Shown here one piece after another: positions 1,110 through 40,300 of a stretch of 64,000 nucleotides of DNA (positions are counted from its first letter, which is position 1; each line of letters opens with the position of its first letter). The translations under genes and the position numbers were made by a program. The stretch is from the UHGV virus genome UHGV-1410950. One strand, given 5' to 3'. Source of the stretch: a virus. The notes beneath the pieces were generated by a model. That model saw nothing but the letters and a program-made list of their open reading frames with translations, had not been told where the DNA came from and ran no database searches.

Positions 1110-1153
1110 AAGTCCCTCCTGAGGATTGGCTCTAGATTAAAGTCACGACGCTG

Positions 1154-14696: not shown

Positions 14697-15536
14697 ATGG
14701 CTAAAGACTATTCAATCCAGATCAACCTCGGCAGTACCATGGATATCCTCGGAACTATCAACAAAGAGGTGTTCCCCTACCTGCATCAGGCCGTCAACGC
14801 GGTCGGGAATAAGCTCGCCCAAAACTGGCAGGAGGAGGTATACAAGGCGAAATTGTGGAGCGGCGAAAAGGACAAATACGCCAAGTCAATCAGCTGGCAA
14901 ATGACCGGGGATTTCTCCGGCTATGTCGAGGCGACGTATAAATGGGCTGAGGAAATTGAGAGTGGACGCCCTGAGCGCGATCTGAAAAAGATGCTCAATA
15001 CCTCGCTGAAAGTCCGCCGTACAAAGTCCGGCAAACGCTTCCTCGTCATCCCCTTCCGGCATAACGTGAAGGATATGCCGGACGAGCTCTACGCGCAGGC
15101 CAAAGCGCTGGAAGCCTCCAAAGTCGTCGGGCAGACGCAACGCCGTACCGGGGAGGTAACTTTCCTCTCTCGCAAAACCGGGATGCAGCCCGCCAAGCGA
15201 CAGACGCCATTTCTGACCAACGTTAAGACGCATGGCCCGATGATGGTCAATCAGGCCCAGTACAAATGGGGCGGACGCATTCACGCGGGCTACTTCGGCC
15301 CTAACCCGAAAGGGAAGGTCGATCACGCGGCAGGCATGGTGCGGTTCGATACCAGCAGCGGCAAGCAGAAGTCCAGCGCCTATATGACATTCAGGATCAT
15401 GATGGAAGGCCAGCAGGGCTGGGTTGTGAAGCCACAGCCGGGAAAATGGATTGCGCGGAAGGTGCGCGACGATATGGCACCGAAGGCAGAGGAAGCATTC
15501 AAAGCCGCAATGGGCTGGACGCTGAAAGTGAAGTAA
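14697..15536 (+). CDS. Hypothetical basic protein; candidate moron (only plus-strand gene inside the tail module)
   Basis: Plus-strand ORF with a GGAGG RBS 7 nt before the ATG (MAKDYSIQ...). Lys/Arg-rich, no recognisable domain. Opposite in orientation to all flanking structural genes. Confidence 0.5.
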   Translation: MAKDYSIQINLGSTMDILGTINKEVFPYLHQAVNAVGNKLAQNWQEEVYKAKLWSGEKDKYAKSISWQMTGDFSGYVEATYKWAEEIESGRPERDLKKMLNTSLKVRRTKSGKRFLVIPFRHNVKDMPDELYAQAKALEASKVVGQTQRRTGEVTFLSRKTGMQPAKRQTPFLTNVKTHGPMMVNQAQYKWGGRIHAGYFGPNPKGKVDHAAGMVRFDTSSGKQKSSAYMTFRIMMEGQQGWVVKPQPGKWIARKVRDDMAPKAEEAFKAAMGWTLKVK

Positions 15537-15645
15537 AAAAAAAGCCGCGAGGCGAGTCGCGGCACGTCAAAGTAGGTATTAATAACAGCTTTTATTTTCA
15601 GGCAAATGGACTATAGACGGGGCTATCCGTCCGGTCAACGTCTTT

Positions 15646-18652: not shown

Positions 18653-20185
18653 TTACTCACCAGTGTGCGGACGCCATTTTGCCTGAGTAGGCAGAATGTT
18701 TTTGATGTAGCCATGGTGCTTCGGCTTGGTAATACGCAGATAACCAAACAGGAACTGGAACCATGACATTACAGGCATCCCGCCTACACCGAATGGCAGA
18801 GGGATCTTGGTCATCGGTTGGAACTGACGCCAGCCGATAGCATCAGCGCCCGCGCCAAGGTTCAGCATAGGTACGCAGATGGTGCCCGGCAGAGTGCGGT
18901 TGTCGTCGTGGAACTTGGTCTTACCACCAGCGGAGCTAGAGGTATCAATTTTCACGTAACCGACCAGACGCATATCGCGCAGGGTGTCCAGATCATCAGC
19001 AGCTTTCGCCACGTCCTGACGACCACGATAGATGGCGAAGCCGCCGCAATCAGTGGATGCCGGGTTGGTGATGGACAGCACGATTTCTTCGCCAGAGGCA
19101 ACAGTAACCTGATCCACGATCACCGCTTCGGACAGGCCAGCGCCGGAGGTGCTGATACCTGCGATAGCGTAGACGTACTTACCAGCACGTTTGCCAGTGA
19201 AGCGAGCCGCGCCGTTAGTAGCCGCTGCGCCAGTTGTCGCGCCCGGTTTCAGTGCGGAGTTTTTCGCCGCCAGATCCGGGTTGGTCAGCTGGAACACATG
19301 CACCATCGGGTTGGTCTCGTCATGGATAAAGGTATCCATGTGAGTTTTCAGGGTGCCAGTAGTCAGGCGGATCCCGTTAACATGACCACCGATAGTTGGT
19401 GTGTTCTGGCCTTCTGGCATCCAGCGGAATGCTGGATCTAAGCCCATGTTCAGATCGTTCTGAACAGAGTTAGGCAGGAAGATATCGGTTGACTGGCCCC
19501 AGTTGCCGTAGGAGTTAACTTCTACGTTAATCTGAGACATCGGCTCAACGCTGTTCAGCGCGGTACCGTTCAGGTCAACGATGTGCTCCGGTGCCATTTT
19601 CCCCGCAGCCACTTCTTTGTCGATCTGGGTAAAGATACCGTCAAACTGCGTACTAACAACGTCAGCGTTACCATGATAAAGCAGGTAGTTGGCGTCGGTC
19701 AGCAGTTGCAGTGCGCCGTTACGTTCTTCGACCGCAATCGGCTCAGCGATGTTTTTACCGATGTTCAGGACATAGCCGACCTGACGCAGAGACATCAGGA
19801 ATTTGACCAGACCTACTTCACGGCTGTATTCGCCCTGTGCGGCACGTACAACGCCCATCTGGGTGTTGGTAGAACCACCAAGGAAACCACCGACAGATGA
19901 CTGGCGGCTGTATTCGTCAACGATGTTGATCGCGTTGGACTGCTGCAACATGTTGAACAGCGTAAAGTGCTTGTTCTCCTGAATCGTGGTCTTCATCGCA
20001 GTATCAAGAGACTGCACGCCTAACGCGCCGCCGCCCTGCAATTTGCTCACGTCAGTCTGATAGTCCGAAGCCTGAAGCGCTTTGGTCAGCTCCTCAAACT
20101 GGGCCATATTACCGCCCAGAGAGCCGCCAAGAGCAGCTGCGCCGCCCGGCAATGCGTTCTGGAACAGTTGGGCGATGTTTTGCAT
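18653..20185 (-). CDS. Major capsid protein (510 aa)
   Basis: Large ORF at the head-module position after the scaffold genes, followed by a strong terminator. Shares a 16-aa motif (GGGA[LF]GVQSLDT) with the upstream protease/scaffold ORF. Confidence 0.65.
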   Translation of the reverse strand: MQNIAQLFQNALPGGAAALGGSLGGNMAQFEELTKALQASDYQTDVSKLQGGGALGVQSLDTAMKTTIQENKHFTLFNMLQQSNAINIVDEYSRQSSVGGFLGGSTNTQMGVVRAAQGEYSREVGLVKFLMSLRQVGYVLNIGKNIAEPIAVEERNGALQLLTDANYLLYHGNADVVSTQFDGIFTQIDKEVAAGKMAPEHIVDLNGTALNSVEPMSQINVEVNSYGNWGQSTDIFLPNSVQNDLNMGLDPAFRWMPEGQNTPTIGGHVNGIRLTTGTLKTHMDTFIHDETNPMVHVFQLTNPDLAAKNSALKPGATTGAAATNGAARFTGKRAGKYVYAIAGISTSGAGLSEAVIVDQVTVASGEEIVLSITNPASTDCGGFAIYRGRQDVAKAADDLDTLRDMRLVGYVKIDTSSSAGGKTKFHDDNRTLPGTICVPMLNLGAGADAIGWRQFQPMTKIPLPFGVGGMPVMSWFQFLFGYLRITKPKHHGYIKNILPTQAKWRPHTGE

Positions 20186-23243: not shown

Positions 23244-25055
23244 TTACAGGTCAGGCAGACCAAACGATTTGTAGAGCCCTTCCTCGTCGAGGTTCTGCAA
23301 CGTGTTATGCAGCTCATCGAATTTTTTCTTATTGTCGGCTTGCAGCTGCTCCTGCTCGGCCTGCTGCTGTGCAGCTGCGTCGGCGTCGTCAGGGTTGGCA
23401 GGATCAGCGCCCGGCTCCTCGCCCGGCTGCTGTAGCTCGGCCTGCTGCGCCATCTGCTCGGCCTGAATATCAGCGTTGACCTTAGCCATATAAGGCTGCA
23501 TCGAAACGCTGTTAAGCGGGGAGTTAGCCCAGTCTTCTTTGATTTCTTCCCAGTTGCGAGCGCGGCGTGCTTCGTTGACGGTAAGGAGCGTTTTCTCCTC
23601 GTCCCACGCCTGCTTCGGATCCTTCTCATCCAGACCTGTCCAGCGGAACACGTACTTATCTGAGAAGTCGGAAATGATGTAATCGGTGAATAAGTCCTCG
23701 AAGTGCGACAGCAGCGGTCGCAGGCCCTTATCCTTCGAGTTGATCAGCTTCTCCTCCGTGTCACTGCCGGACAGCGAACTGGTACCAGCAGTGAAGGATT
23801 CGAAGTTGATCTCGTCCGGGGCGATGCCATAAATAGCGCAGATGATCGCGGTTAAGAACGTCATCCATTTGGCAAACATGATCTCGTTAACGTCTACGCC
23901 AAAGTTTTCAAATTTCGCCGTGGATTCCGAAGTTTTGGAAACCATGACGGGCAATGTCCATGCGTTATTGATGCCCTTCACCATGCTATTCCAGTACCGC
24001 TTAAAGGAGTTGAGATCCTCGGTAGAATAGTCGCCGGAGAGATGGAGCAGACCTTTCGGGATGGCGTTCGAGTCGAAATACTTCTGGTTGTACGTCATGG
24101 CGTTCAGGAAGCCCGTGACGGTGTTTACCAGCAGCTCAGTTTCGCTCATCCCGTAACCGCCGTTCAGCACATCGGTGCGGGTGTTGCGCGGAACATAGAT
24201 CAGGTCGTTGTAGGTGTAAGCGGTGCGGATGTTACCCTGCACCACCTGTAATGCGAAAATCTCATCATCGCCCTTGTAGCCGTCCTCAGTACAGAGGCGG
24301 ATCGTGGCACCATCGACGGCATAAAGCCCGTCCATGCCCAGCGAGCGGTTTTTCTTGAATTCGGTCTCAATCGGCGCGGAGTCCATCACCAGCGAGTCGC
24401 GCACCAGCTTGCTCATGAAGCCTGAGAAGTTATCGCGCTTGAGGCGAGCACGCACGCGGGGGTTACTCTCCCAGCCGCAGTTTTGCATGAACATTTGCAG
24501 CGCGTTGATGGAGTCCTGCTCGGCTTTCGCCAGCTTCTGTGAGCCGTTCTGCTCTTTCAGACGGATCTGGAAGCCGGGGCCCACGCCCTTCTCACTGGCG
24601 CGGCAGAAGCGTTTGATCTGGCGGATGCGGGTCATCACCACCGCCGACAGGATTGGCGTCTTGTCCACCATGTAGCGCATGGCATCAAAGCCAAAGTTTG
24701 TCGGACGCTCGTACCAGTCGCCCAGAATCTGCACCTGACGGTCATCCAGCCAGACAGACTGCATACCTTCTTTCTTGCCCTCGCGGACAGCCTGAGAAGG
24801 GTAATCGACCAGCGTATTTTTCTGGAGGGACTTGTAAAATTCCTGATCAGCATATGACTGGGCAATATGCTGAATCAGCGGAGCCAGATCCGGCACGCTG
24901 GAAGGCATTGCAGCTTTCTGCGCTTGCGCCATCGCATCCTGCTGTTCGTCGGCAGGCGCGGCAGGGTTGTGCGCGGTTTGGATGGCGTTGTCAGACATAC
25001 GGTTAACCTTTGCAAAGTAGTCCGCAGAGAGTGACATCACGACATCACGACGCAA
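23244..25055 (-). CDS. Portal protein (about 600 aa)
   Basis: Large ORF at the head of the morphogenesis module. Acidic Gln/Glu-rich C-terminus. The probable true start is the ATG at about 24998 (MSDNAIQ...), which has an RBS. Confidence 0.65.
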   Translation of the reverse strand: MRRDVVMSLSADYFAKVNRMSDNAIQTAHNPAAPADEQQDAMAQAQKAAMPSSVPDLAPLIQHIAQSYADQEFYKSLQKNTLVDYPSQAVREGKKEGMQSVWLDDRQVQILGDWYERPTNFGFDAMRYMVDKTPILSAVVMTRIRQIKRFCRASEKGVGPGFQIRLKEQNGSQKLAKAEQDSINALQMFMQNCGWESNPRVRARLKRDNFSGFMSKLVRDSLVMDSAPIETEFKKNRSLGMDGLYAVDGATIRLCTEDGYKGDDEIFALQVVQGNIRTAYTYNDLIYVPRNTRTDVLNGGYGMSETELLVNTVTGFLNAMTYNQKYFDSNAIPKGLLHLSGDYSTEDLNSFKRYWNSMVKGINNAWTLPVMVSKTSESTAKFENFGVDVNEIMFAKWMTFLTAIICAIYGIAPDEINFESFTAGTSSLSGSDTEEKLINSKDKGLRPLLSHFEDLFTDYIISDFSDKYVFRWTGLDEKDPKQAWDEEKTLLTVNEARRARNWEEIKEDWANSPLNSVSMQPYMAKVNADIQAEQMAQQAELQQPGEEPGADPANPDDADAAAQQQAEQEQLQADNKKKFDELHNTLQNLDEEGLYKSFGLPDL

Positions 25056-25071
25056 AATAATTTAAATACCC

Positions 25072-25100
25072 TCTTGCTATCATCTTTTTTGCGTGCTTTA
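25072..25100 (+). promoter_or_regulatory. Sigma70-like promoter for the plus-strand tRNA transcription unit (approximate coordinates)
   Basis: TTGCTA, then a 17-nt spacer, then TTTAAT. Reads into a roughly 350-nt leader and the tRNA elements. Confidence 0.35.
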
Positions 25101-25451
25101 ATCCATCCCGTAGCGCTGATTGGGATGTTTTCCGATATTGAAATTTAACTTAGAAAGTTAATGTCAGTTATGGGACGGAAAGCATCAACCAATGAGCGCT
25201 TGGCTTTGACTACTCAATACGGATTTGTCGTTATTTCGCGTATACGGTTGTCAAGTGCTCAGCCAAATCCGATAAACCGGGTAGATCGATTCAGACGGCT
25301 AAGTGGAGCCTGACGATGAAAGCGCCGGATGAGGATGGCGAATGGCAAGCTACTGGCCTGACTTAATCTCTTTCAAAGTAAAGAGTAAATCTGGGCGGCG
25401 ATAGTCCATAGAATCAATATCGCAATCGGGTGAAAATCCCGTTCAAATTCT

Positions 25452-25581
25452 ACCGATTAGTGACGATGAAAGGGGCCTTCGCGATCCCCAAGTAATTGGC
25501 AGGTTGCCTTAGGTCACAAGCCGCAGCGGAGATTGCAAGCGAAGCTGTAGGATAGAGGTTCGACTCCTCTGATCGGTGCCA
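25452..25581 (+). ncRNA. tRNA 3'-half-like element (T-arm + acceptor 3' strand + CCA), degenerate
   Basis: AGAGG-TTCGACT-CCTCT T-arm followed by GATCGGT, G and CCA. A 7-nt complementary strand ACCGATT lies about 125 nt upstream, but the intervening sequence does not form canonical D or anticodon arms. Confidence 0.3.
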
Positions 25582-25723
25582 TTTTTGCGGTTACACAAGT
25601 GTGCAGATAGCGTGACGAGGAAAGGCGTTCCGTGCGACGCTGGAGGCGATGGTAGGGTAAGCACCCTCTCCTATGACTCACGACTCAACCTCTCCGGGTA
25701 ACGACCGGAGCCGCAAAACAGAT

Positions 25724-25847
25724 TGAAGCGTAGCTCATTGGCAGAGCAGCACACGGATGCGGATCCGCGCCAGCACAAGGCTCCTTCGGGGTGTGCCGCT
25801 GGCTCCAGAAGTGTATGTAACTGGTTCGATCCCAGTCGCTTCAACCA
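25724..25847 (+). tRNA. tRNA-Trp(CCA)-like gene interrupted by a 49-nt insertion (about 25754-25802)
   Basis: Perfect 7-bp acceptor stem (TGAAGCG/CGCTTCA), U8, canonical D-arm (GCTC-ATTGGCA-GAGC), T-arm ACTGG-TTCGATC-CCAGT, discriminator A and CCA. The 3' anticodon side is canonically spaced: loop CTCCAGA (U33, anticodon CCA, close to E. coli tRNA-Trp CUCCAAA), a 4-bp stem pairing with GCACA, and a 5-nt variable loop. With 49 nt removed the gene is 75 nt long. Confidence 0.4.
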
Positions 25848-25851
25848 TTTT

Positions 25852-25927
25852 GATTCTGTAGCTACAGCGGTAGAGCGGCGCACTGTTAATGCGCGGGTCG
25901 CTGGTTCGAATCCAGCCAGAATCGCCA
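25852..25927 (+). tRNA. tRNA-Asn (anticodon GUU), phage-encoded
   Basis: 76 nt with a 7-bp acceptor stem (GATTCTG/CAGAATC), anticodon stem GCGCA/TGCGC with loop CTGTTAA, T-arm GCTGG-TTCGAAT-CCAGC, discriminator G and encoded CCA. Its sequence differs from the E. coli asn tRNAs. It follows the Trp-like gene after a 4-nt spacer. Confidence 0.85.
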
Positions 25928-26092
25928 GAGTAATCATGGGTTGGTTACAAGCCTGTCAGAAGGCAATCCCGCCCCGGCTTCTCCTCAGGTCGCCGGGGCA
26001 CCTTCCCAGAATTAAGGGCAGTCCCTTACTTCTGCGTCGGTAAGAGCGGAGAATCAGGAAATTTCGACCGTAGTACCAAAACATTGCTTCCT

Positions 26093-26121
26093 TGCCGCCC
26101 CCGTGGGCGGCTTTTTTTTAG
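26093..26121 (+). terminator. Intrinsic terminator closing the tRNA unit (approximate coordinates)
   Basis: GCCGCCC-CCGT-GGGCGGC followed by T8. Confidence 0.6.
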
Positions 26122-26136
26122 CCTGAGGAGTAACCC

Positions 26137-26664
26137 ATGAATATCTTTCGCCGCATCCTGAATAAAATCTTTGGCATCCCACCAGTGCCACCAGAGCCGA
26201 AGATCGAGCCGCCAAAGTTCGGCGGTGATTTCCCGCGCCCGGTCTCCGTCACCATGAAGGCTACTCAGACCGTCAAGCAGGATCCGATGGCTGCGGCGGT
26301 CGCCCGTGCAAAAAGGGACGCGGAGAAAACTGCCGTAAAAGGCAACGTCAGCAGCGCGAGCAGCAGCTCCACCACACGCCCGGCATATGATCCACTCATG
26401 GATCCACTTAACCCGTTAAGCCCGCTATATGTTGGCGTAACAGTTGAGGAGCCGCGCCACCGCGTACAGCATCAGGAGGCGACGACGATCAGCGATACCA
26501 CGCACCGACACGTTGCCAGCCATTCTGAGCCAGTACGCAGCCACAGCTCACACAGCAGCAGCCATTCGAGCCATGACTATGGCAGCAGCCACTCAAGCCA
26601 CAGCAGCCACGACAGCGGCAGCTATGACCACGGCAGCAGCCACCATAGCGGCAGCGACTGGTAA
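26137..26664 (+). CDS. Hypothetical His/Ser-rich protein (175 aa)
   Basis: GAGGAG RBS 7 nt before the ATG. Proline-rich N-terminal half and a C-terminal SHSSHSSHSSHD low-complexity tail. Convergent with the terminase gene, with stop codons abutting. Confidence 0.5.
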   Translation: MNIFRRILNKIFGIPPVPPEPKIEPPKFGGDFPRPVSVTMKATQTVKQDPMAAAVARAKRDAEKTAVKGNVSSASSSSTTRPAYDPLMDPLNPLSPLYVGVTVEEPRHRVQHQEATTISDTTHRHVASHSEPVRSHSSHSSSHSSHDYGSSHSSHSSHDSGSYDHGSSHHSGSDW

Positions 26665-29280
26665 TTAGTCGTCACCTTTCGAAATGAAGCCGGAGCAGCC
26701 AATATCCTCCGGCTTCACCTGCATCATGATCTCATGGCAGGATCTGGTCTCCGGGTCGTAGTTCACACAGCGCCCGCAAACATCCCCGCGATACTTCACG
26801 CTGTTCACCTCCTCCATGTAGCTCACCAGCGTCTGATCGACGCCGATATCCAGCGGACTCAGGCGCTCGATCTTCACCTGCGGTGCATCCGGCAGAATAA
26901 ACGTACTGGTGCCATGGGCGCGGCTCCATGCGACATCGCATAGCAGGTTTGCGTAGGAGAAGTGGGGATCGATGCCGATTTTCTTCACGCTGCGCTTGTA
27001 CTGGTTCGTTTCCTCGTCCTTCTCAGCCACCAGCGCCGTTTTGGTGAAGTGCGTGAACATTACCGGGGCCACGGCTTCCACGCGCGTGACGCCCTTCTCA
27101 CGAATCTCCTGCACCAGCCCCTGAGGGTCTGGGATGAGGCAGATTGGCTCGTCGGCAGTGAAGCGGGCCATGGAGACCTGCATACACTTATACTGGTCAA
27201 TGCGGACGGTGTAGCGATCCTGTTCGTTCTCGTCGGTGCGCACATCGGACTTGTCCAGCTTCATGCTGTCATTCCACTGGATCATGCCATCCGCTACAGT
27301 ACCGAAGCTATTACAGATGAATACCCGGCCTTTGTGACGGTTGGCGAAGCGTTTGGCGTCGTTGTAGTTCGGGTTGATTTCCACCACGCAGCAAGCCACG
27401 CCGTACTGATTCATCAGCTCGCTACAACGGGCAAACGGATCCTCGCTGTAAATCATTTCGATGTGGACAATCGCTTGGTGCCCGGAGGGCAGTCGCTCCT
27501 TGATAACCACCACGTTAAACTGGCCCATCTGGTCAATACCCATGTAGCAGTTATCTGCGCGGGACTTCCACTGCACGCCGAAACGCAGACCATGCTTAAC
27601 GCAATTTGCCAGGTGTTCCAGCGTTACCGGAACCAGCGACGGATCGAGGAACGGCTTGCCCAGTTTACGGTTATAGAAGTTTTTCATATCCGTAGCGTTG
27701 TTGAAGGCGGAAATAATCTCGCCGGGGCTGATTGTCGGTGACAGGAACTGCGGAAAGTGCGCCGACCGGATGCACATTTCCCCTTCCTCATTCTCCGGCG
27801 CATCCGGGATCCATTCCCCGCGCTGCGTGTCCTCAATCCAGCCTCCGCAGCTGTAGCAGACATATCGGTGGCGTCTGGTGTCCGGGTCGTACTTAATGCA
27901 CTGCGGGAAATAGTCATCCAGCGGTTTCTTTTCGAGGCAGTGCGGGCACTCGGTATGGAAACGGTACTGGGATCCCAGCTTGTACCAGTGGTGGATATCG
28001 GAGTCGGGCCAGTTGGCGGTGGAGCCCATCAGGCTGTAACGGATCGGGGATGCAGACAGACGCTCACGCGTTTTCTCCATCTGCTCCAGTGACATTTCCT
28101 GCACCTCATCGAAGCTCAGGACATCCATCGGGATGGATTCGGTAGTCGCGCGGCCCGATGTCCAGCTGAATACAAACATGGCCTCACCGATGCGACGGGT
28201 ACGCACGTTACCCTCGCCTTTCTTGCGACCGCCGCCTTTCTCATCGTCCTGCACCATGAGCGCATGTACCTCAGGTACGGTGCGCACAATCGGCATGAAG
28301 CGCTCGGAGGACTTGATCCCCGCCAGCGCGGCATCCGGCAAGAACATGCCGATAGTCATCGGTTGGAAGCGCAGGCCAAGGTAAATAACAGCGAGCATTT
28401 CCATGACGGTAAAGCCCACCTGCGCACACTTCATCAGCACCAGCGTTTTACGGTATGCCTCCTCGACGGTGCTGGGGATCTGGTCATAAATCCACGCCAT
28501 CGCCGGGCGGTTATCCAGCTTGAACGGGCGACCATCCACTTTGAGGCCCGTTTCGCCCAGCCGGATGCACCACTCCAGAAAGGTCTCGTTTGGCTTGAGG
28601 ATTTTCTGGGAAGCGGTCAGTACAAAGGTCGTATCGAGGAATTCAGCATCATAGCGCTGGCGCTTCTCATCCCCGGTCGTGCTGTCCATTTTCTCCAGGA
28701 ATGCCGCGTCGAGGTTGTGGCGGTTGGTCTCGGTCGGCACGCGGCGTCGGAACCAGTCAGGATCCAGCTCGGCTTCCATCCACAGGCGATAAAAGTCGTG
28801 ATTCTTCCCGTAGGCACCGGACAGGAACCATGCACTGCCGTGGTATTCGCGCAGGCACTCAGCCAGCGTGTCACCCCAGATCTGCATGAAGTTGTAAATC
28901 TCGCGCACGTCATCAACGATCATCAGGCCATACTGCCCGTTGACCTCTTTCATGCTATCAGCCGCATAAAGATCAATGTACTGGCCCGACAGCAACGTGA
29001 TTCGCCTGCTGGTTGAGCTCTTGATGAGCGGATCGATGGCCTGCACGATACGCGTGCGCACCTCCATGAGGTCTTTATACGTGGCGCTCATCCACATCGC
29101 CGGGGCAGGGTTATTCATGATGCCCTGTTTACCAGCCACCAGAGCCTCTATGCCAAGCGTTGTCTTTCCGGCCTTCTCGCCCATGGCAATAACGTTAAAA
29201 CGCGCTGCACGGTCGATACAGGTTTGCAGCGCCTCGTTCAGAATGGGTAATTTGATTTTGATGGTTTTTTGACGAGCCAT
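26665..29280 (-). CDS. Terminase large subunit (lambda GpA-like) with about 200-aa C-terminal extension
   Basis: 871 aa. N-terminal Walker-A-like GEKAGKT. Central zinc-finger region (HTECPHCLEKK...YVCYSCGGW) resembles gpA's CPHCGEEQ...LCEHNAC. A further Cys cluster lies at the C-terminus (CGRCVNYDPETRSCHE). Confidence 0.75.
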   Translation of the reverse strand: MARQKTIKIKLPILNEALQTCIDRAARFNVIAMGEKAGKTTLGIEALVAGKQGIMNNPAPAMWMSATYKDLMEVRTRIVQAIDPLIKSSTSRRITLLSGQYIDLYAADSMKEVNGQYGLMIVDDVREIYNFMQIWGDTLAECLREYHGSAWFLSGAYGKNHDFYRLWMEAELDPDWFRRRVPTETNRHNLDAAFLEKMDSTTGDEKRQRYDAEFLDTTFVLTASQKILKPNETFLEWCIRLGETGLKVDGRPFKLDNRPAMAWIYDQIPSTVEEAYRKTLVLMKCAQVGFTVMEMLAVIYLGLRFQPMTIGMFLPDAALAGIKSSERFMPIVRTVPEVHALMVQDDEKGGGRKKGEGNVRTRRIGEAMFVFSWTSGRATTESIPMDVLSFDEVQEMSLEQMEKTRERLSASPIRYSLMGSTANWPDSDIHHWYKLGSQYRFHTECPHCLEKKPLDDYFPQCIKYDPDTRRHRYVCYSCGGWIEDTQRGEWIPDAPENEEGEMCIRSAHFPQFLSPTISPGEIISAFNNATDMKNFYNRKLGKPFLDPSLVPVTLEHLANCVKHGLRFGVQWKSRADNCYMGIDQMGQFNVVVIKERLPSGHQAIVHIEMIYSEDPFARCSELMNQYGVACCVVEINPNYNDAKRFANRHKGRVFICNSFGTVADGMIQWNDSMKLDKSDVRTDENEQDRYTVRIDQYKCMQVSMARFTADEPICLIPDPQGLVQEIREKGVTRVEAVAPVMFTHFTKTALVAEKDEETNQYKRSVKKIGIDPHFSYANLLCDVAWSRAHGTSTFILPDAPQVKIERLSPLDIGVDQTLVSYMEEVNSVKYRGDVCGRCVNYDPETRSCHEIMMQVKPEDIGCSGFISKGDD

Positions 29281-34362: not shown

Positions 34363-37300
34363 TTATACGCTCGGCAGGATGATACATTCCACAACGGTCA
34401 TGCCGCTGCCGCCAAAGCCATCGGCGTCCTTAGTCCCCGATTCGTTCACCTTAGTGATGAGGAGGCGGGTATTAGGTGGCAGGATAATTTCTTTTTCCCC
34501 GGTATGGTGCGAGATAGATCCACCACTCGGAAGCGAGCCAGCGCCCGCATAGATACCTTTTACGCCGGGGCCTGCTGTCATTTTGAGGTGAATATTACCA
34601 CTCCACACGTCTGGACTGATAGACGTGGACATAATTGCAGGCTCCATGATGACCTTGCCTACCGACGCTTTCAGCTTGGAGAGATCACCGCTGCCCAGAC
34701 TGAATTTGCGCCCGAACGTGGTACCCGGCGAAATTTCATGGCCCATACCAGACAGCGCCTGCGCTGCTGCTTTCGCTTCTGCGCTTGGGTTGCCCTTCCA
34801 CAGTCCGCTGTTCATCTGCTTATAACTGCTACCAGTATACGCCTGCACGGCCTGTTTTTGTGTCATCGGCAGCTTTTCCCACACTTCCTGTGCTGCTTTG
34901 GCATAAGTGTTTGTGGTCAGCGTGCCAGCCTTGAACGTGGTTTTAGTAATGCCAAGGTCTTCCGGCTCAACAATCCCCGGATGGCCCAGTACCAGCAGGT
35001 TCCCGATCTTGTCTGCATCGTTACCGCTCCAGTTTTCCGGCTTGTATTCTTCGTGCATCGAATACAGCGGGTGATCGCCGCCGATACGGAACTGCTCGGC
35101 TTCATGCCCGGCAAGCTGGCTCTTAATCTCGTTAATCGCCTGCATCGCGTAGCCTTTGATATGCTGCGATGGGTGATCGAGCACTGGCACCTGTCCGGTA
35201 ACAGCTCCGGTGTCTTTGTCAAAGGTTGGCGCGGTCAGGCCGCGAATGGCTTCCGGGTCTCCGGTCAGCGCCGCAGAATAAATGGCCTGCGCCGCGTCGT
35301 GGTTCCCTTTGTTCAGGAACTCTTTGGAGGACGGGCCGGATTTGCCAACGCCAGACCAGTTGAGGAAGTCAGGCGGGGTACTGATTTTCTCCGGCTTGAA
35401 TTTCTGCATTTTGATGATCTTCTCGGCTTCCGGGTACTTCTCAGCCAGATACTCTTTGCGCTTGATGAGCGTTTCCACCAGCTCCTTTTTCGCCTTATCA
35501 TCGCCCGGCCCATACTGGTTGACCATGTGCGCAATTTTGGCGTCGGAGATAGCCAGTACCTTGGAGACAGACGCGGCGATATCGGCCTCAGTCATGCCAC
35601 CGAAGACGGCTGCGCTGTTCGCGTTCATCTTCGGATCCATCAGTGACTCCAGCTCCTTAACGACAGGGCCAAATTCTTTCTTCGCACCCTGCGCACGGAA
35701 CATCAGCGAGCCGCCCGCATCGACGCGGTGAATGGTGCCGTCATCTTTCAGCTGCACGTTGTCTTTCGCCAGCCCCACGACATCCCAGTTACCCAGCCAC
35801 GCATCAACGGCGAAGCCTTCCAGCATCCCCTTGGCCTTCGCCAGCGCTGCATGGGTTTTGGCCTTCTTGATGTTCTCCCACTTCGAGGCAATAGCCATTT
35901 TCCCGTCCTTGGTGACGATCATGGCGTCCTGCGCGGACAGCCCAGCGGCGCTATACAGTTTCGCTGCCAGCACCTCAGCCTTGGCGTGCTCCTCGTTATC
36001 CGGGAACTTCACATACCATTCCTGCCCATCGGCGTCCTTCATTTTCATGCCTTCATTCGAACCGCCTTGGTTGCCCCCGGTCACTGTCCACTCATCGACG
36101 CTGATCGGCTCTTTCTTCTTCCACTGGTACTTTTTGACCTCCATCGGGCCATCAGCGGCAAGGCCATTCTCTGCCGGGTTGCTGGTCGCGGCGGTAGCCT
36201 TCATCAGCTGCGCGACGCCATTCATAGCATAGGTGCCATTCACCTCAGGGTTATAACCTGACTTAACCTTTATCCCATTAGCCATCAGCATCATCGACGC
36301 ATATTGCGCCAGCGCCTTTTTACCCGGCGCGGTCGGGCCATACTCCGTTGAGACCTTAATTTTCATCCCAAACTCGCCATAAATCAGCATCGAACCATCG
36401 GCTTTCTGCATGATGACGCCTTTGGTGCCGCCGCCTTTGGTCAGCTTGGCTTTGAGGTTATCTACATATTTCATGTAGTGATCCTGCTGCCAAGCGCTCA
36501 GGCCAAGCGCAGCGAAGTCAGGCGCTGGGATCTCGTCAGGATTGGCCCTAACCCAGCGCCCGTTTTTCAGGATCAGCATCCCGTTGGCACCCGGCTTCAT
36601 GTCGCCTTCTTTTGGGCCATCGTCGGCCTTCTTCGCATCTTCTTCGGCTACGGTATTCTTGATAGCCGTCAGGATCCCGTCGATAGCCACAGTGGCAAAA
36701 TCGTTGATGGTCAGCACGCTTTTAATGGTGCTGACTGCATCAACCTTGTCCGGGTTGGCGTCGTAGTATTCCTTGCACGCCACCGATGCTTTGACGACCT
36801 TTTGCAGCCCGCTTTTGGTCTCCGCGATGCTCTTGATGTCGTCCAGCAGTTTCAGGTCAATCATTCCCAGATCCGGCGCGGCAGTTTCCGGTGCTGGCGC
36901 AGGCTCCTCAGCTCCGGTGATCTGATCCTGTACAAAGGTCATGGTGCTGATTGCGTAATCAGTCATGCTCATTTTGACCAGATCGGTTCCCTGATTCGCC
37001 ATCAGCGCATACGCGGATTCTTTGACGCTGTTCAGCACAGCCTCTTTCATTTCCTTCGAGTCGGTGTACTTCGCCAGCATCGCCATCGCTGCCAGACCAT
37101 CCAGTGCATCGGCATCCGCCATGCTATCGCCTTTGTAGCTGGCTTTCGGGATCCCCTGCGGGACGCCGTGCATGTTGATGCTGTCTTTCAGTGTGGACTG
37201 TAGGACAGGGATATGTGACACGTTATCGCCTGCGGCCTTCACGATGTCCTGATAGGTGGCAGGGTTGTCGCCTTTCTTCGCCACGTACTCCTGCACAGCC

Positions 37301-40300
37301 ATCAGCGTTTCGAGGTTGTCTTTGGCGTTGTTGAAGACCAGCCCAAGGTCATACATGTTTTTCGGCTTTTCCGGCGCAGCGGTCAGCTTGCTGATAACCT
37401 CAGCCATGTACTCCTTGTACTTATTACCGTTGATCGTGGTGCCCGGCGTCGCGTTCTGCTCATATTTCATGGCCTCGATGAGCAGCTTTTTGCTGTTCTC
37501 ATCCTTCGCCAGTGTTGCGGCGATGGCGTAGCCCTGAAAATCAGTTGCCTCGGTCGAGTAGAAACCAACATCCGGCTTAATTGGCAGATTGAACGGCTTC
37601 CCGTGCTTCTTAAAGTAATCCTGCCCGATTTCAGACGCGGCGTAGACGTGCCCGCTATTCATTTTCAGGATGTTGTCGATAACGGTCGTGTATGCGCCCT
37701 TATCGCCATTGTTGTCCTTGATGAATTCCAGACCGATAGCACTCGCATCATCGCCGTTAGCGCCAGCCAACGCCTGTTTGAGCGCCACAATCTCGCTGCC
37801 CGCGCTGCCATTTGCTGAGGTCTCAGGCATGTCCTGCTGTAAGATCCAGTGCCCGTTATGGAAGACCAGCGTACCGCCTTTACCCTGCTTGGTATCACCC
37901 TCCTGCGGGCCATCCTCTACCAGCCACTTATTGACCTCCTGCTGGTACAGTTTAACCTGCACAGCAGCTGGCTCGGAAAGGTGAAGCTCGCTCAGCTCAT
38001 TAAAGTGCTTGGCGATCACATCAGGATCCGATTCTTTGCCTTTGTGAATTTCTTCGGCAATGACGTTATAGAGGGTCTGCACTTTCGTGCCATAGGTTTT
38101 CACCGTATCGCTGGTTGGTGATACCAGAGGTTTTTCTGGCTCAGTGCCGTAAGTCTCGCTCCACCATTTCCCGTAGGCTTTCTTACCTGCGATAAAGAAT
38201 TCATTTGCCAGCTCGTTAAAGCCATTGTCCTTCATGGCCTCAGCCATCGCCACCAGATGCGGCGCATCGTGACCGTTAGCCGTCATCCAGTCGCCAGCCA
38301 TCGCATCGGCTTGCTTTTCGTCCTTGGCATCTGTCAGCATGTCAAACGCACTTTCCCACAGAGCGTAATCGTTCAGGATCGCTTTCTTCTCCTGCTTACG
38401 CTCATGCTTAGTGGCAGTCTGCTCGGATTTCGCCGCAGCCTGAGACTTCTCGGCCCATGAATCGTACAGCTTCCCGACGCTGGACTCGGAGAAGGCCAGA
38501 TCGCTACCGTAATAGGTAGACGCCTGCTCAATGAATGCCTCGCCTTTTGTCTTCGCCCACTCGTTGAACTCAGCCACATCGGCAAAATCCGGCAGCTGCG
38601 GCTCAGGGGTTGGCGCACGCTCCTGCTTGATCTGCGGTGGCGTCGGCAGGGATTTCACGGAGATATCGCCCAGCTCTTTCTTGGCGGCGGTCACGGCTTC
38701 GATGATCCACGCGGACAGATCAACCTTCTGGAAGGCATCAATCAGGTTCTGGTCATCACGGATCACTGTCACCATGTCGTTGATGTTGTCCACAGCCAGC
38801 GCCCAGTTACCCGCGTTGAGGTCATTCTGGATGTCCTCACAGATGCCGTCGATAAACGCATCACCAGTCTGCGGAGGATTGGAGAAAGTCTTCACTCCCT
38901 CAGGCTTAGGCGCAGCAGCAAGGCCCAGAGACTCCGCCAGATTGACCGCAGGCTCTTTGCCAGCCATTACCTGCTGGTAAACCTCATTCTGCGTGTTGGA
39001 GAAGCCGGAGATATGGCCCCAGTCGCCCTTCTCGTTAACCCACATACCAGAGCCCGGATTCTTCGGATCCGCGACGATGACTGCGCTGGTATTGGTCGGG
39101 TAAACGCCTGCGTCTGGAGTCGTGGACAGCACGCCATTCCACATGTTCTTGATGACGTTTTGCTGCTTCTTGGTCAGGTGATTCGGCTTGCCCAGCTCCA
39201 CCAGCTCGGTCGGGTACTCGCTATGGTGATAGTCGGAAATGTAGCCCAGATTGTCCGGGGTTTTGGTGTTGCCACCAAAGCCGATCAGTTTCAGGTACTG
39301 GCCCGCTTGGAACGGTTTCGCCAGCGGCTCCCCCTTCTTGCTCATAGGCCATGCGGTCGCGTGCCCCATCAGCACTTTCAGGTACGGGTTGCCGTCCTTG
39401 TCATAGGTCTGGATGATCGAGCCAGCAGGCAGGTTAGGCATGTCAGAGATAGACAGCTTCTGGCCCTTTTTGAACTCACCAGCGACAGGCTGATCCTTGA
39501 GCGGCTCGCCAGTCTCCTGATTGTGCCAGCGACCGTCTTTGAAGACCTGCATCCCGTTTTTGCCCATGCGGGTTTCACCTTCCTGCGGGCCTTCCTCAGC
39601 CCGGACGGCTTTCTGCTGCTCAACCTCGGCGCTGGCCTTCTGATCCTTTTCTGCCTGGCTAAACTGGCCCAGCATTGGATGCACGGCGTCTTTGCCGATG
39701 ACCACTTTGATGTCAGGGTAGCCCAGCGCTGCCAGCGCGTTATTCGCAGCCTTGGCGACTTTGAGCCCGTAGGTGTTTTTGCCGTAGGTCATCGCCAGAA
39801 TGCCGTTGATGTTGCCTACTTCGCCAGCGGCCTTGATAGCGGCGATCTGCGCGTTGTAGCTCTTGGCATTCTTAATGTTCTCCGCGACGGCGAACTGGCT
39901 CCAGTCGATAGCTTCCATGGCCTTCTTCGACACGGATGCTTTCGGGGCTGGCTTGCCTTCGGCGGTGTCCGGCTGCGCCGGGGAGGTAGCGATGATTTCA
40001 ACCGCGCTCAATGGGCTCGGCTCCTCGGACTGCACCAGCGGCTTATTCGGATTCTCACCCGTCAGCAGCGCCAGCTTTTGCCCGTAGAGGTTCAGCAGCT
40101 TTTTGCTGTTCGGGGTGATGCCCTTCCAGCTTTTCGCCTTGCTCTTGATAGCTTCCAGCTCCGCCAGACTGGTGGCGTCGATGACCTTCTGAGCCTGCGC
40201 CTCATACGCGGTGCGCACGCCAGTGGAGTTTTTGCCGGATTCAAATTTAGGCATGACGATTTCGCCTGGCTTCGGTGCTTCGGCAGCAGGTGTTGAGGCT

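What the first reader, a model, noticed from the sequence alone, without database searches (positions are those of the whole stretch)
25072..26121. Compact plus-strand tRNA unit with a phage-specific tRNA-Asn(GUU), opposite in orientation to the whole genome
A promoter, a 350-nt leader, a degenerate tRNA 3'-half, the interrupted Trp-like gene, a 4-nt spacer, a canonical tRNA-Asn and a strong terminator form the only plus-strand transcription unit other than two morons. The Asn tRNA differs from host asn tRNAs. Phage tRNAs are increasingly linked to evasion of anticodon-nuclease defences, and GUU/QUN anticodon tRNAs are targets of colicin E5-type and related nucleases. The first element (25452-25581) has a T-arm, acceptor and CCA but no D or anticodon arms. 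It could be a remnant or a tRNA-like stable RNA, like T4's unexplained RNA species in its tRNA cluster.
Basis: partly seen in the sequence, partly recalled or inferred. Interest (0 to 1): 0.55.

Follow-up and report, generated by a model that had tools for sequence, protein, structure and literature searches.

The report
Phage tRNA-Asn operon with tRNA-framed RNAs
Next to one ordinary phage tRNA-Asn gene lie three oversized RNAs built on a tRNA frame, and one of them belongs to a conserved, unnamed RNA family shared with unrelated phages such as Salmonella phage Vi01; what these RNAs do is unknown.

Summary
The window is a ~95-kb myovirus, 99.8% identical to Enterobacter phage phiT5282EW. The plus-strand block lies between the portal and large-terminase genes.

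Confirmed: tRNA-Asn(GUU) at 25852-25927, the terminator at 26094-26119, the 4-nt spacer and the strand bias. The tRNA is 78% identical to the E. coli asn tRNA, but its anticodon loop is the same, so nothing in the sequence points to nuclease evasion. Asn-rich, AAC-biased structural genes fit plain tRNA supply.

The rest needs re-reading. Three adjacent RNAs carry a tRNA frame with extra helices where the anticodon arm should be:
- U1, 25452-25581
- U3, 25724-25847, the "Trp-like" gene, which has no usable anticodon loop

A covariance model built without the window hits U2 at 89.5 bits (E 3e-19). The family occurs in tRNA regions of Ackermannviridae, in Pectobacterium phage Amona and in uncultured relatives. 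Covariation is strong (19 of 40 pairs) and Rfam 15 has no match.

A near-identical phage carries a 93-nt hairpin instead of U1-U3, so the array is a dispensable cassette. The closest precedent is T4 RNAC/RNAD, whose function is also unknown.

The parts
25074..25102 (+). Candidate promoter: TTGCTA, 17-nt spacer, TGc-TTTAAT (extended -10 type, but T instead of A at position 2 of the -10 hexamer).
   Evidence: Read from the sequence. The block 25084-25127 is conserved in relative L011, which has a TTGCAC-17-TTTAAT arrangement. It occurs once in the window. The sigma-70 scan does not call it. It could instead belong to the divergent portal gene. Unverified.
25103..25451 (+). Structured leader. Its parts are the 12-mer TGACGATGAAAG at 25311-25322 followed by a GC hairpin ('U0'), the hairpin 25368-25385, the hairpin 25398-25423, and a terminal conserved motif CAATCGGGTGAAAATCCCGTTCAAATTC at 25423-25450.
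   Evidence: This is the most variable patch against ECML-606-1 (79% in 25200-25400). Stems are kept by compensatory changes: GCGATA/TATCGC versus GCGTCG/CGGCGC in ECML, and CTCTTT/AAAGAG versus CCCCTTT/AAAGGGG in L012. The terminal motif recurs directly upstream of tRNA-Tyr and tRNA-Gln in Ackermannviridae and in L011.
25452..25581 (+). U1: an oversized tRNA-framed RNA. It has a 7-bp acceptor stem, about 95 nt of extra helices, a canonical T arm, G73 and an encoded CCA. It contains the 12-mer TGACGATGAAAG at 25461-25472.
   Evidence: Frame scan; 12-mer statistics; not a tRNA by Rfam at E<=10 or by ARAGORN. The only homologues are identical copies in phiT5282EW and ECML-606-1, and its pattern is absent from IMG/VR. 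The internal fold is unresolved.
25584..25722 (+). U2: a member of a conserved phage RNA family. It has an acceptor stem (25584-25590 / 25711-25717), a D-like hairpin, and a long arm ending in a three-way junction that holds the invariant GACGAGGAAAGGCG...GUGCGA...GAUGGU...CACC-UCUCC. A T-like hairpin sits at 25692-25710. No CCA is encoded.
   Evidence: Model R1, built without the window, gives 89.5 bits, E 2.8e-19, full length. Covariation: 19 of 40 pairs changed on both sides and 95.9% of cells paired, against 34-45% in the slid controls. An independent MAFFT/RNAalifold run shows 14 compensatory pairs. 39 phage records match. No Rfam match.
25724..25847 (+). U3: a tRNA-framed RNA with a 7-bp acceptor stem, a D arm (GCTC-ATTGGCA-GAGC), about 65 nt in place of the anticodon arm and variable loop, a T arm, A73 and an encoded CCA. 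It has no canonical anticodon stem-loop.
   Evidence: The unconstrained MFE fold is a cloverleaf frame with two hairpins inside the 'anticodon' stem. ARAGORN -i gives 'Arg(tcg)' with a 29-nt intron. No Rfam tRNA hit. No homologues outside this phage lineage. It weakly resembles the tRNA-Ser(GCU) that precedes tRNA-Asn in Ackermannviridae.
25848..25851 (+). A 4-nt U-rich spacer, the likely site of precursor cleavage.
   Evidence: Sequence. Ackermannviridae have the same arrangement, CCA-AATT-tRNA-Asn.
25852..25927 (+). Canonical tRNA-Asn(GUU) with G73 and an encoded CCA.
   Evidence: It is 78% identical to the host tRNA-Asn, with an identical anticodon loop. The best E. coli matches are 83% and lie on ~110-kb plasmids.
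25928..26093 (+). Structured trailer with hairpins at about 25930-25948, 25951-25964, 25971-25999 (loop CUCCUCAGG) and about 26000-26041. Two of its segments are complementary to the ribosome-binding site and start codon of the next ORF.
   Evidence: Fold z-score -2.3. It is homologous to the L011 trailer, and hairpin stems are kept by compensatory changes. Inverted repeats 25976-25989/26122-26135 and 25931-25942/26132-26143. The pairing is not conserved in L011.
26094..26119 (+). Intrinsic terminator: GCCGCCC-CCGT-GGGCGGC followed by T8.
   Evidence: An equivalent terminator sits directly before the orthologous ORF in L011.
26137..26664 (+). A 175-aa protein with a Ser/His-rich C-terminus. 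It is probably expressed by read-through of the terminator and so belongs to the same plus-strand unit.
   Evidence: Annotated in PQ352032. No Pfam or PHROG family. Translation. An orthologous ORF is visible by eye in the L011 DNA; the translation attempted was out of frame. Only 18 nt separate the terminator from the ATG.

Best explanation
The block is a phage tRNA-type operon inserted as an accessory, moron-like cassette between the terminase and portal genes. One transcript would carry a structured leader, three oversized RNAs built on a tRNA frame (U1, U2, U3), one true tRNA-Asn(GUU) and a structured trailer that ends in a terminator.

Inferred processing: the tRNA frame is a 7-bp acceptor helix stacked on a T arm, with NCCA in U1 and U3. 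Together with the short U/A-rich spacers, it would make each unit a substrate for the host tRNA-maturation enzymes. These are RNase P at the 5' end, RNase E in the spacers, and 3' trimming or the CCA enzyme. The frame would also make the products stable.

Products: tRNA-Asn supplies decoding capacity for Asn-rich, AAC-biased late genes. The three tRNA-framed RNAs cannot decode, because the anticodon arm is replaced by extra helices. They would act in trans through those helices. For U2, the conserved three-way-junction arm is the selected part, and it most likely binds a host or host-defence component that has not been identified.

Shown here: the anatomy, U2 family membership and covariation, cassette variability, and non-identity to the host tRNA. 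Inferred: co-transcription, processing, stability and trans action.
For: - The only three acceptor plus T-arm frames in 64 kb are adjacent on one strand, and each is followed by NCCA (shuffles give 0-1).
- U2 matches an independently built covariance model over its full length (89.5 bits, E 2.8e-19).
- The family structure is supported by compensatory changes in every helix except one.
- Family members always lie in or beside tRNA genes, on the same strand, in unrelated phages. In Ackermannviridae they are upstream of the tRNA cluster. In Amona the element is 6 nt upstream of tRNA-Met. In L034 and L018 they lie next to tRNA-Tyr and tRNA-Met.
- The core is conserved while the frame decays. The window's U2 has a non-canonical T loop, and L034 has no T arm.
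- Modules are exchanged at module boundaries. L012 replaces 25384-25848 with a 93-nt hairpin that ends exactly at the tRNA-Asn 5' end. L011 has different modules in the same slot.
- The leader-end motif is shared with the sequence upstream of Ackermannviridae tRNAs.
- Precedent: T4 RNAC and RNAD are made from the tRNA region (PMC3014915), and rnaC has the same frame.
- Asn usage is 4.9% overall and about 6% in the head and portal genes.
Against: - There are no expression or end-mapping data.
- The promoter is unverified.
- U1 and U3 have no homologues outside three near-identical genomes, so their folds have no covariation support.
- Their MFE z-scores are unremarkable, from -0.2 to -1.3.
- A near-identical phage lacks U1-U3, so they are dispensable and could be neutral.
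- U2 lacks an encoded CCA and, in this phage, a canonical T loop, so its processing by the tRNA route is uncertain.
- No binding partner or target can be named.
- The 100% identity of 25421-26200 with ECML-606-1 is not exceptional in genomes that are 96-100% identical elsewhere.
Confidence: 0.55

Rival explanations
1. Relics. U1 and U3, and possibly this phage's U2, are decaying tRNA pseudogenes or hitch-hiking remnants of a tRNA cluster acquired from an Ackermannviridae-like source. Only tRNA-Asn is functional.
For: - U1-U3 are absent from a phage with a 100%-identical portal.
- U1 and U3 have no homologues elsewhere.
- U3-Asn resembles the tRNA-Ser(GCU)-4 nt-tRNA-Asn pair of Ackermannviridae.
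- U2 here has lost the canonical T loop.
Against: - U2 keeps all seven helices through three compensatory pairs in the long-arm stem relative to Ackermannviridae. Neutral decay does not do that.
- Acceptor stems, T arms and CCA of U1 and U3 are all intact.
- The insertions form stable helices rather than scrambled sequence.
Confidence: 0.2
2. The unit exists to deliver a nuclease-resistant or replacement tRNA-Asn against anticodon nucleases such as the colicin E5 type, and the neighbouring elements are a remnant and an interrupted tRNA.
For: - The tRNA is phage-specific, at 78% identity to the host.
- Phage tRNAs are known to counter tRNA-cleaving defences, according to the literature cited in PMC13056530.
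Against: - The anticodon loop is identical to the host's, and the stem differs by only two pairs.
- Asn-rich, AAC-biased late genes give a simpler reason for carrying the tRNA.
- This view does not explain the conserved U2 family or the cassette behaviour.
Confidence: 0.12
3. A long cis-acting 5' region. The whole structured RNA, with its terminator as an attenuator, mainly controls expression of the downstream Ser/His-rich protein (26137-26664).
For: - The ORF starts 18 nt after the terminator and has no promoter of its own.
- The same terminator-then-RBS layout is present in L011.
- Trailer segments are complementary to the Shine-Dalgarno sequence and start codon.
Against: - The complementarity is not conserved in L011.
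- Inverted repeats of similar length occur by chance in the same 1.9 kb.
- This view does not explain the tRNA frames, or U2 homologues that lie in other phages with no such ORF.
Confidence: 0.1
4. U3 and/or U1 are intron-containing tRNA genes that are spliced into functional tRNAs (Trp or Arg).
For: - ARAGORN with introns allowed gives a tRNA-like call.
- A CUCCAGA heptamer could be read as a Trp anticodon loop.
Against: - Bacterial and phage tRNA introns are group I ribozymes longer than 200 nt. Here the inserts are 29-65 nt, and there is no Rfam intron hit.
- The two readings, Trp and Arg, are mutually exclusive.
- No RNA ligase or splicing endonuclease was found among the proteins scanned.
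Confidence: 0.03

Closest known systems
Bacteriophage T4 RNAC and RNAD (species 1 and 2 stable RNAs, genes rnaC and rnaD)
   Same: They are small stable RNAs encoded inside a phage tRNA operon, on the same strand as the tRNAs and a few nt from them. rnaC has a 7-bp acceptor-like stem plus a canonical T arm around an oversized body (91-nt frame). Their function is unknown (PMC3014915).
   Different: There is no sequence or core-structure homology. Models R1 and R2 hit rnaC only at the level of ordinary tRNAs, about 16 bits. The U2 family has a conserved three-way-junction arm and occurs in Ackermannviridae, Amona and this lineage, not in T4.
Canonical phage tRNA clusters, including tRNAs proposed to evade anticodon nucleases
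   Same: tRNA-Asn(GUU) is a normal member of this class. It is phage-specific in sequence and has an encoded CCA.
   Different: Its anticodon loop is identical to the host's. The three neighbouring RNAs fail the tRNA model.
Engineered 'tRNA scaffold' for expressing recombinant RNAs in E. coli (Ponchon and Dardel; recalled from my own knowledge, not checked here)
   Same: The anticodon arm of a tRNA is replaced by a foreign structured RNA, while the acceptor, D and T arms are kept so that the cell processes and stabilises the chimera. U3 and the Ackermannviridae U2 have exactly this architecture.
   Different: That scaffold is a laboratory design. Here it would be natural and evolutionarily conserved. 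Processing and stability were not tested.
Bacterial Y RNA-like YrlA (a tRNA-mimicking non-coding RNA bound by Rsr/Ro60; PMC4201824 appeared in the listing)
   Same: It is a non-coding RNA with a tRNA-like module in enterobacteria and some phages.
   Different: As I recall, the topology is permuted: in YrlA the RNA ends form the Ro-binding stem and the acceptor-like stem is closed. There is no Rfam hit, and no rsr gene was seen.
tmRNA
   Same: It has an acceptor plus T-arm tRNA-like domain around a large insert.
   Different: ARAGORN makes no tmRNA call at default settings. There is no G3:U70 pair and no tag ORF. The only hit is a weak sub-threshold 'tmRNA_permuted' match on the Ackermannviridae copy (26 bits against a gathering score of 47).

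Membership tests
Canonical tRNA (Rfam RF00005 / ARAGORN) | Scores above the tRNA covariance-model gathering threshold, with a full cloverleaf that includes a 7-nt anticodon loop. | tested here: met
   Applies to 25852-25927 only: 61.5 bits against 29, anticodon GTT.
Canonical tRNA (Rfam RF00005 / ARAGORN) | The same criterion applied to U1 (25452-25581), U2 (25584-25722) and U3 (25724-25847). | tested here: not met
   No tRNA hit at E<=10 over 24900-26300. ARAGORN at default settings finds none. Only with introns allowed does U3 get an implausible 'Arg(tcg)' call with an intron and a long variable arm.
tRNA-like frame (acceptor helix stacked on a T arm, the RNase P / CCA-enzyme minihelix) | A 7-bp acceptor stem directly abutting a 5-bp T stem with a TTCRANY loop, followed by NCCA. 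| tested here: met
   U1 and U3 meet it, as does tRNA-Asn (chance 0-1 per window). U2 meets it in Ackermannviridae, but in the window it has a 6-bp stem with loop GTAACGA and no CCA.
U2-type phage RNA family (defined here, models R1 and R2) | A full-length match to a covariance model built from other phages, with all helices retained. | tested here: met
   Window 25584-25722: 89.5 bits, E 2.8e-19, model positions 1-150 of 150, two non-canonical pairs. Family covariation.
U2-type phage RNA family (defined here, models R1 and R2) | U1 or the leader ('U0') as further members. | tested here: not met
   With filters off over 25050-25583, only the T arm scores (5.9 bits). The iterated model R2 finds nothing there. 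The only link is the shared 12-mer TGACGAKGAAAG, present three times against an expectation of 0.04.
T4 RNAC/RNAD-type stable RNAs of tRNA operons | Encoded within a tRNA operon on the tRNA strand, with a tRNA-like terminal domain. | tested here: met
   Position and frame. T4 rnaC shows the same frame.
T4 RNAC/RNAD-type stable RNAs of tRNA operons | Sequence or structure homology to rnaC or rnaD. | tested here: not met
   BLAST of the block gives no hit to the rnaC/rnaD region of T4-like phages, only to their tRNA-Asn. Model R1 gives scaffold-level scores only.
T4 RNAC/RNAD-type stable RNAs of tRNA operons | Accumulates as a discrete stable RNA, processed by the tRNA-maturation enzymes. | not testable with these tools
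   Needs RNA from infected cells.
Intron-containing tRNA gene (bacterial or phage group I intron) | A self-splicing group I intron (longer than 200 nt, helices P1-P9) in the anticodon loop. | tested here: not met
   The inserts are 29-65 nt, and there is no Intron_gpI or other ribozyme hit at E<=10.
Integration-site (att) tRNA remnant | The tRNA or its 3' part is identical to a host gene and flanked by att-like direct repeats. | tested here: not met
   The best E. coli match is 83%, on plasmids, and the tRNA is 78% identical to the chromosomal asn tRNA. No flanking direct repeats.
Anticodon-nuclease-evading phage tRNA | Anticodon-loop differences from the host isoacceptor. | tested here: not met
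   The loop CUGUUAA is identical. Differences lie in the acceptor stem, D arm, two anticodon-stem pairs, variable loop and T arm. Actual nuclease sensitivity cannot be tested here.
tmRNA | A tRNA-Ala-like domain with G3:U70 plus a tag reading frame. | tested here: not met
   No tmRNA from ARAGORN at default settings. The acceptor stems lack G3:U70.

The most novel reading that the evidence does not exclude
The oversized tRNA-framed RNAs would be natural 'tRNA-scaffolded' effector RNAs. This applies above all to the U2 family, which is conserved from Vi01-type Ackermannviridae to this myovirus and to Pectobacterium phage Amona. On this reading, phages borrow the host tRNA-maturation and stability pathway to produce decoys or aptamers that neutralise a tRNA-directed or RNA-sensing defence, or that sequester a host factor. 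They trade these RNAs as cassettes inside tRNA operons. A sub-variant concerns U3. It has intact acceptor, D and T arms, A73 and an extra arm, so a synthetase that ignores the anticodon could charge it, giving a charged but non-decoding tRNA.
Probability: 0.2. Interest if true: 0.8.

Novelty: new variant of a known kind. Interest (0 to 1): 0.55.

Why it matters
Phage tRNA regions are usually annotated only for canonical tRNAs. T4's RNAC and RNAD have been known since the 1970s without a function.

This block shows that tRNA-framed, non-decoding RNAs recur in phage tRNA operons. At least one family is conserved with compensatory changes across unrelated enterobacterial phages, including the well-studied Vi01, KpS110 and Kuttervirus groups. 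That family is unannotated in all 39 matching records and has no match in Rfam 15. The elements also behave as swappable accessory cassettes.

This gives a concrete, testable handle on what such RNAs do. There is a defined family, a natural deletion variant, and culturable phages on E. coli, Salmonella and Klebsiella. It also points to a natural counterpart of the engineered tRNA scaffold.

Tried and rejected
- Rfam 15, at gathering thresholds and at E<=10, on the block and on Ackermannviridae and Amona loci. Nothing matched U1, U2 or U3. The marginal hits (FMN, suhB, anti-hemB, tmRNA_permuted) are chance or come from the terminator or T arm.
- Ribozyme and riboswitch readings of the GACGAGGAAAGG core (hammerhead, fluoride, ykkC, RNase P P4, sarcin-ricin loop, k-turn or C/D box). 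These rest only on short resemblances I recalled, with no model support, so I dropped them.
- U1 as a U2 paralogue. The covariance models do not support it, and alignment beyond the 12-mer is poor.
- U3 as a derivative of tRNA-Ser(GCU). It is the best-scoring tRNA in pairwise alignment, and the pairing with tRNA-Asn is the same. However, the shared 11-mer occupies different structural positions, so the result is inconclusive.
- Searches for more family members. Two patterns found nothing in 185,579 reference genomes, so there is no sign of a chromosomal or prophage reservoir. Only two metagenome contigs matched.
- IMG/VR patterns for U1 found none. For U3 there was one chance hit, inside an Ogr-like zinc-finger CDS.
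- Long-range leader pairing 25130-25141/25414-25425. It is broken in ECML-606-1, so I rejected it.
- Trailer-RBS pairing. It is not conserved in L011.
- The 49-codon ORF at 25161-25310 in the leader. It has no conserved counterpart in L011 and its frame is disrupted in ECML-606-1, so I rejected it.
- A prohead-RNA (phi29 pRNA-like) role, suggested by the position between terminase and portal. I rejected it because the near-identical phage L012 lacks the array.
- Literature searches for a described family found none. The 2023 catalogue of viral structured RNAs (PMC10690425) mentions tRNA-like candidates only generically.
- The 260-nt gap downstream of portal. Its fold z-score is 0.1, so there is no evidence of structure.
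Full report
**What the window is**

Region 25000-26200 is 99.8% identical to Enterobacter phage phiT5282EW (PQ352032, 95.5 kb) and 94% identical to Escherichia phage ECML-606-1. These are the only two close relatives among 50,697 phage records. PHROG and Pfam hits identify a contractile-tailed phage:

| Coordinates (all - strand) | Gene |
|---|---|
| 11766-13562 | tail sheath |
| 18653-20185 | major head protein |
| 23244-24998 | portal |
| 26665-29280 | large terminase |

The finding therefore lies in a 1.67-kb gap between terminase and portal, on the opposite strand. In the annotated twin genome, 49 CDS lie on the - strand over 50 kb. Only two CDS and the tRNA lie on the + strand. One of those two CDS is the ORF immediately downstream of the finding.

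**Checking the observation**

Several elements are real:
- tRNA-Asn(GTT) at 25852-25927 (ARAGORN; Rfam 61.5 bits).
- The terminator, a 7-bp G:C stem followed by T8 at 26094-26119.
- The 4-nt spacer TTTT at 25848-25851.

I wrote a scan for a 7-bp acceptor stem directly abutting a canonical T arm, with 60-230 nt between the ends. It finds exactly three frames in the 64-kb window, adjacent on the + strand and each followed by NCCA:
- 25452-25577 (126 nt)
- 25724-25843 (120 nt)
- 25852-25923 (72 nt, the tRNA)

Twenty shuffled windows gave 0-1 frames. They are complete tRNA frames with oversized bodies, not a 3' half and not a recognisable Trp gene. The Rfam tRNA model does not hit either one, even at E<=10. 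The minimum-energy fold of this element is a cloverleaf frame whose "anticodon" stem encloses two hairpins and has no 7-nt anticodon loop.

The promoter (TTGCTA-17-TGcTTTAAT, 25074-25102) is not called by the consensus scan. The block is conserved in a relative whose portal is 80% identical (L011). It lies in a divergent intergenic region, however, and could serve the portal gene instead.

BLAST at low stringency showed that 25597-25690 is about 79% identical to unannotated DNA in many Ackermannviridae and in Pectobacterium phage Amona. The Ackermannviridae include Klebsiella KpS110 and other Taipeivirus, Salmonella Vi01 and other Kuttervirus, and the Agtrevirus pSal-SNUABM-02. In all, 39 records match.

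In those phages the element is a roughly 150-nt RNA with these parts:
- a 7-8-bp acceptor stem;
- a D-like hairpin;
- a long arm ending in a three-way junction;
- a 9-nt linker;
- a canonical T arm (GTCGG-TTCGATT-CCGAC).

I built covariance model R1 from six sequences, none from the window: four Ackermannviridae variants, Amona and one metagenome contig. R1 hits window 25584-25722 over its full length at 89.5 bits, E 2.8e-19. All seven helices are kept and only two pairs are non-canonical.

The long-arm stem differs from the Ackermannviridae version by three compensatory pairs, GCGUGA/UCACG against GGCAGA/UCUGC. Across ten sequences, 19 of 40 pairs show changes on both sides and 95.9% of cells are paired. 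Controls with the 3' partners slid by one to three columns give 34-45%. That alignment is model-fitted, but the independent MAFFT/RNAalifold run already showed 14 compensatory pairs.

R1 also finds diverged members in uncultured relatives of this phage:
- L034 and L042 score 40 bits. These copies lie next to tRNA-Tyr and lack the T arm entirely.
- L018 scores 19.5 bits and lies next to tRNA-Met.

The family has no match in Rfam 15. Two patterns found nothing in 185,579 reference genomes. I call this element U2.

In the window, U2 has lost the canonical T loop (GTAACGA) and has no encoded CCA, yet its three-way-junction core is intact. Selection therefore acts on the core rather than on tRNA likeness.

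**Relations among the units**

The 12-mer TGACGAKGAAAG occurs three times in the window, at 25311, 25461 and 25613. That is 150 and 152 nt apart, and each copy is followed by a GC-rich hairpin. The expected count per window is 0.04. This suggests that the leader ("U0"), U1 and U2 share an origin or a motif. The covariance models do not recognise U0 or U1 as family members, though, and alignment beyond the 12-mer is poor.

U1 and U3 have no homologues outside three near-identical genomes. U3 followed by 4 nt and tRNA-Asn mirrors the tRNA-Ser(GCU)-AATT-tRNA-Asn pair of Ackermannviridae. Ser(GCU) is also the best-scoring tRNA in pairwise alignment with U3, but the shared 11-mer sits in different structural positions, so descent is unproven.

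The last 28 nt of the leader (CAATCGGGTGAAAATCCCGTTCAAATTC, 25423-25450) recur immediately upstream of tRNA-Tyr or tRNA-Gln in Ackermannviridae and in L011. Together with U2 and the Asn pairing, this suggests that the block draws on the same module pool as Ackermannviridae tRNA regions. Those regions contain 2-3.5 kb of ORF-free DNA packed with further stem-closed RNAs.

**Cassette behaviour**

An IMG/VR genome with a 100%-identical portal (L012, 95.5 kb) keeps the leader, tRNA-Asn, trailer and ORF. It replaces window 25384-25848, that is U1 to U3, with a 93-nt long hairpin. The right breakpoint is exactly the 5' end of tRNA-Asn.

The 80%-portal relative L011 has the same layout: conserved promoter block, leader-end motif, trailer hairpins, terminator and orthologous ORF. 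It carries different internal modules, and a 65-nt mini tRNA-like RNA ending in ACCA takes the place of tRNA-Asn. More distant relatives carry their tRNAs downstream of portal on the structural-gene strand. The slot is therefore an accessory, modular locus.

ECML-606-1 differs mainly in the leader (79% identity in 25200-25400). Several leader hairpins there are maintained by compensatory changes. The 100% identity of 25421-26200 is not exceptional, because the two genomes are 96-100% identical elsewhere.

**The tRNA itself**

The E. coli asn tRNA sequence I used is present at 100% identity in 5425 of 5426 complete genomes, with a median of four copies. The phage tRNA matches it at 59 of 76 positions. 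Its anticodon loop (CUGUUAA) is identical and it has G73. Differences lie in the acceptor stem, D arm, two anticodon-stem pairs, variable loop and T arm.

The best E. coli matches to the phage tRNA are 79-83% and lie on ~110-kb plasmids. No direct repeats flank it. The suggested test for nuclease evasion, anticodon-loop differences, comes out negative.

Asn codons make up 4.9% of 17,125 phage codons and about 6% in the major head and portal genes, with AAC outnumbering AAT 593 to 245. Ordinary supply for late genes is a sufficient explanation.

**Downstream end**

The ORF at 26137-26664 encodes 175 aa with a Ser/His-rich C-terminus and has no family assignment. It begins 18 nt after the terminator's T-run, and L011 has the same arrangement. 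It is probably expressed by read-through and belongs to the same unit.

Two trailer segments are complementary to its Shine-Dalgarno sequence and start codon: 25976-25989 pairs with 26122-26135, and 25931-25942 pairs with 26132-26143. This is not conserved in L011, and repeats of comparable length occur by chance in the same region, so I record it only as a lead.

**Mechanism**

The best-supported reading is a polycistronic tRNA-type precursor. Established knowledge of E. coli tRNA maturation says that an acceptor/T-arm stack with a 3' NCCA is what RNase P recognises, and that RNase E cuts in A/U-rich spacers. U1 and U3 meet these requirements, and each has a U at position -1. They would be released and stabilised like tRNAs, but they cannot decode.

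This is the architecture of the laboratory "tRNA scaffold" (my own knowledge). It also matches T4 RNAC and RNAD, which are made from the tRNA region and still have no known role (PMC3014915). T4 rnaC shows the same frame in my scan but has no homology to U2.

What the extra arms bind is unknown. The accessory, swappable nature of the cassette and the current literature on tRNA-directed defences make a host-defence or host-factor target the most attractive guess. Nothing here tests it.

**Verdict**

The real interest lies in the tRNA-framed RNAs, especially the conserved U2 family. I rate this a new variant of a known kind, with interest 0.55.

Noticed in passing
L003 2045-4283; L006 2523-4923; L049 9091-9677: Ackermannviridae (KpS110, Vi01 and others) carry 2-3.5 kb of ORF-free, unannotated DNA upstream of and within their tRNA clusters. 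It is packed with stem-closed small RNAs, each ending in ...CCAAAUU-like spacers. These include further oversized tRNA frames (for example L049 9964-10109, 146 nt) and a tRNA-like RNA with an expanded D loop (L005 2224-2320).
   Followed up: partly
L003 3767-3980 (and L005 4118-4228): The Rfam family STnc100, described as a gammaproteobacterial sRNA, matches the Ackermannviridae non-coding region above its gathering score (48.7 against 47 bits). That 'Salmonella sRNA' family may therefore have phage relatives.
   Followed up: no
L012 3522-3616 (- strand), equivalent to window 25384-25848: A phage with a 100%-identical portal has a 93-nt long hairpin (about a 20-bp stem) in place of U1-U3. This is a natural deletion or replacement variant that could be used for genetics.
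   Followed up: yes
L011 3403-3467 (- strand): In the relative whose portal is 80% identical, the position of tRNA-Asn is taken by a 65-nt mini tRNA-like RNA. It has a 7-bp acceptor stem, a canonical T arm and ACCA, apparently lacks a D arm, and is not called by ARAGORN.
   Followed up: partly
window 26137-26664 (+): A 175-aa protein with a Ser/His-rich repetitive C-terminus (...SHSSHSSSHSSHDYGSSHSSHSSHDSGSYDHGSSHHSGSDW). It is conserved in L011 and has no Pfam or PHROG family. It starts 18 nt after the terminator, and its ribosome-binding site and start codon are complementary to two trailer segments.
   Followed up: partly
window 34363-41118 (-): A 2251-aa ORF with a C-terminal ADP-ribosyltransferase exoenzyme domain (PF03496, E 5e-9) and no PHROG match. 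It may be a giant virion-delivered toxin-like protein.
   Followed up: no
window 56821-57975 (-): A 384-aa protein ending in a YadA-like membrane-anchor domain (PF03895, E 6e-12). This is the anchor of trimeric autotransporter adhesins and is unusual in a phage.
   Followed up: no
window 46844-48355 and 50208-50999 (-): Two DNA methyltransferases, one N6_N4_Mtase and one MT-A70, lie close together in the early region.
   Followed up: no
L056 308-458 (- strand) and the ORF at 658-1617 (-): In a metagenome contig, the U2-type RNA sits downstream of a 319-aa HNH-type endonuclease-like ORF. A promoter-like TTGACG-N17-TATATT lies about 230 nt upstream of the RNA, and a terminator follows it. HNH genes also lie in the Ackermannviridae RNA region, which hints at mobility through homing endonucleases.
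   Followed up: no
L056 (reverse-complement coordinates ~2515-2545) and L018 6690-6712: A second shared module lies upstream of U2-type RNAs: a hairpin with a conserved GAAAGA loop and a covarying stem (CUUCG-GAAAGA-CGAAG against CCUCG-GAAAGA-CGAGG). Amona and L056 also share ACAACAGGTAAGAGC upstream.
   Followed up: no
window 14698-15537 (+; coordinates as annotated in PQ352032): This is the only other plus-strand CDS in 50 kb of an otherwise uniformly minus-strand genome (280 aa, unannotated function).
   Followed up: no
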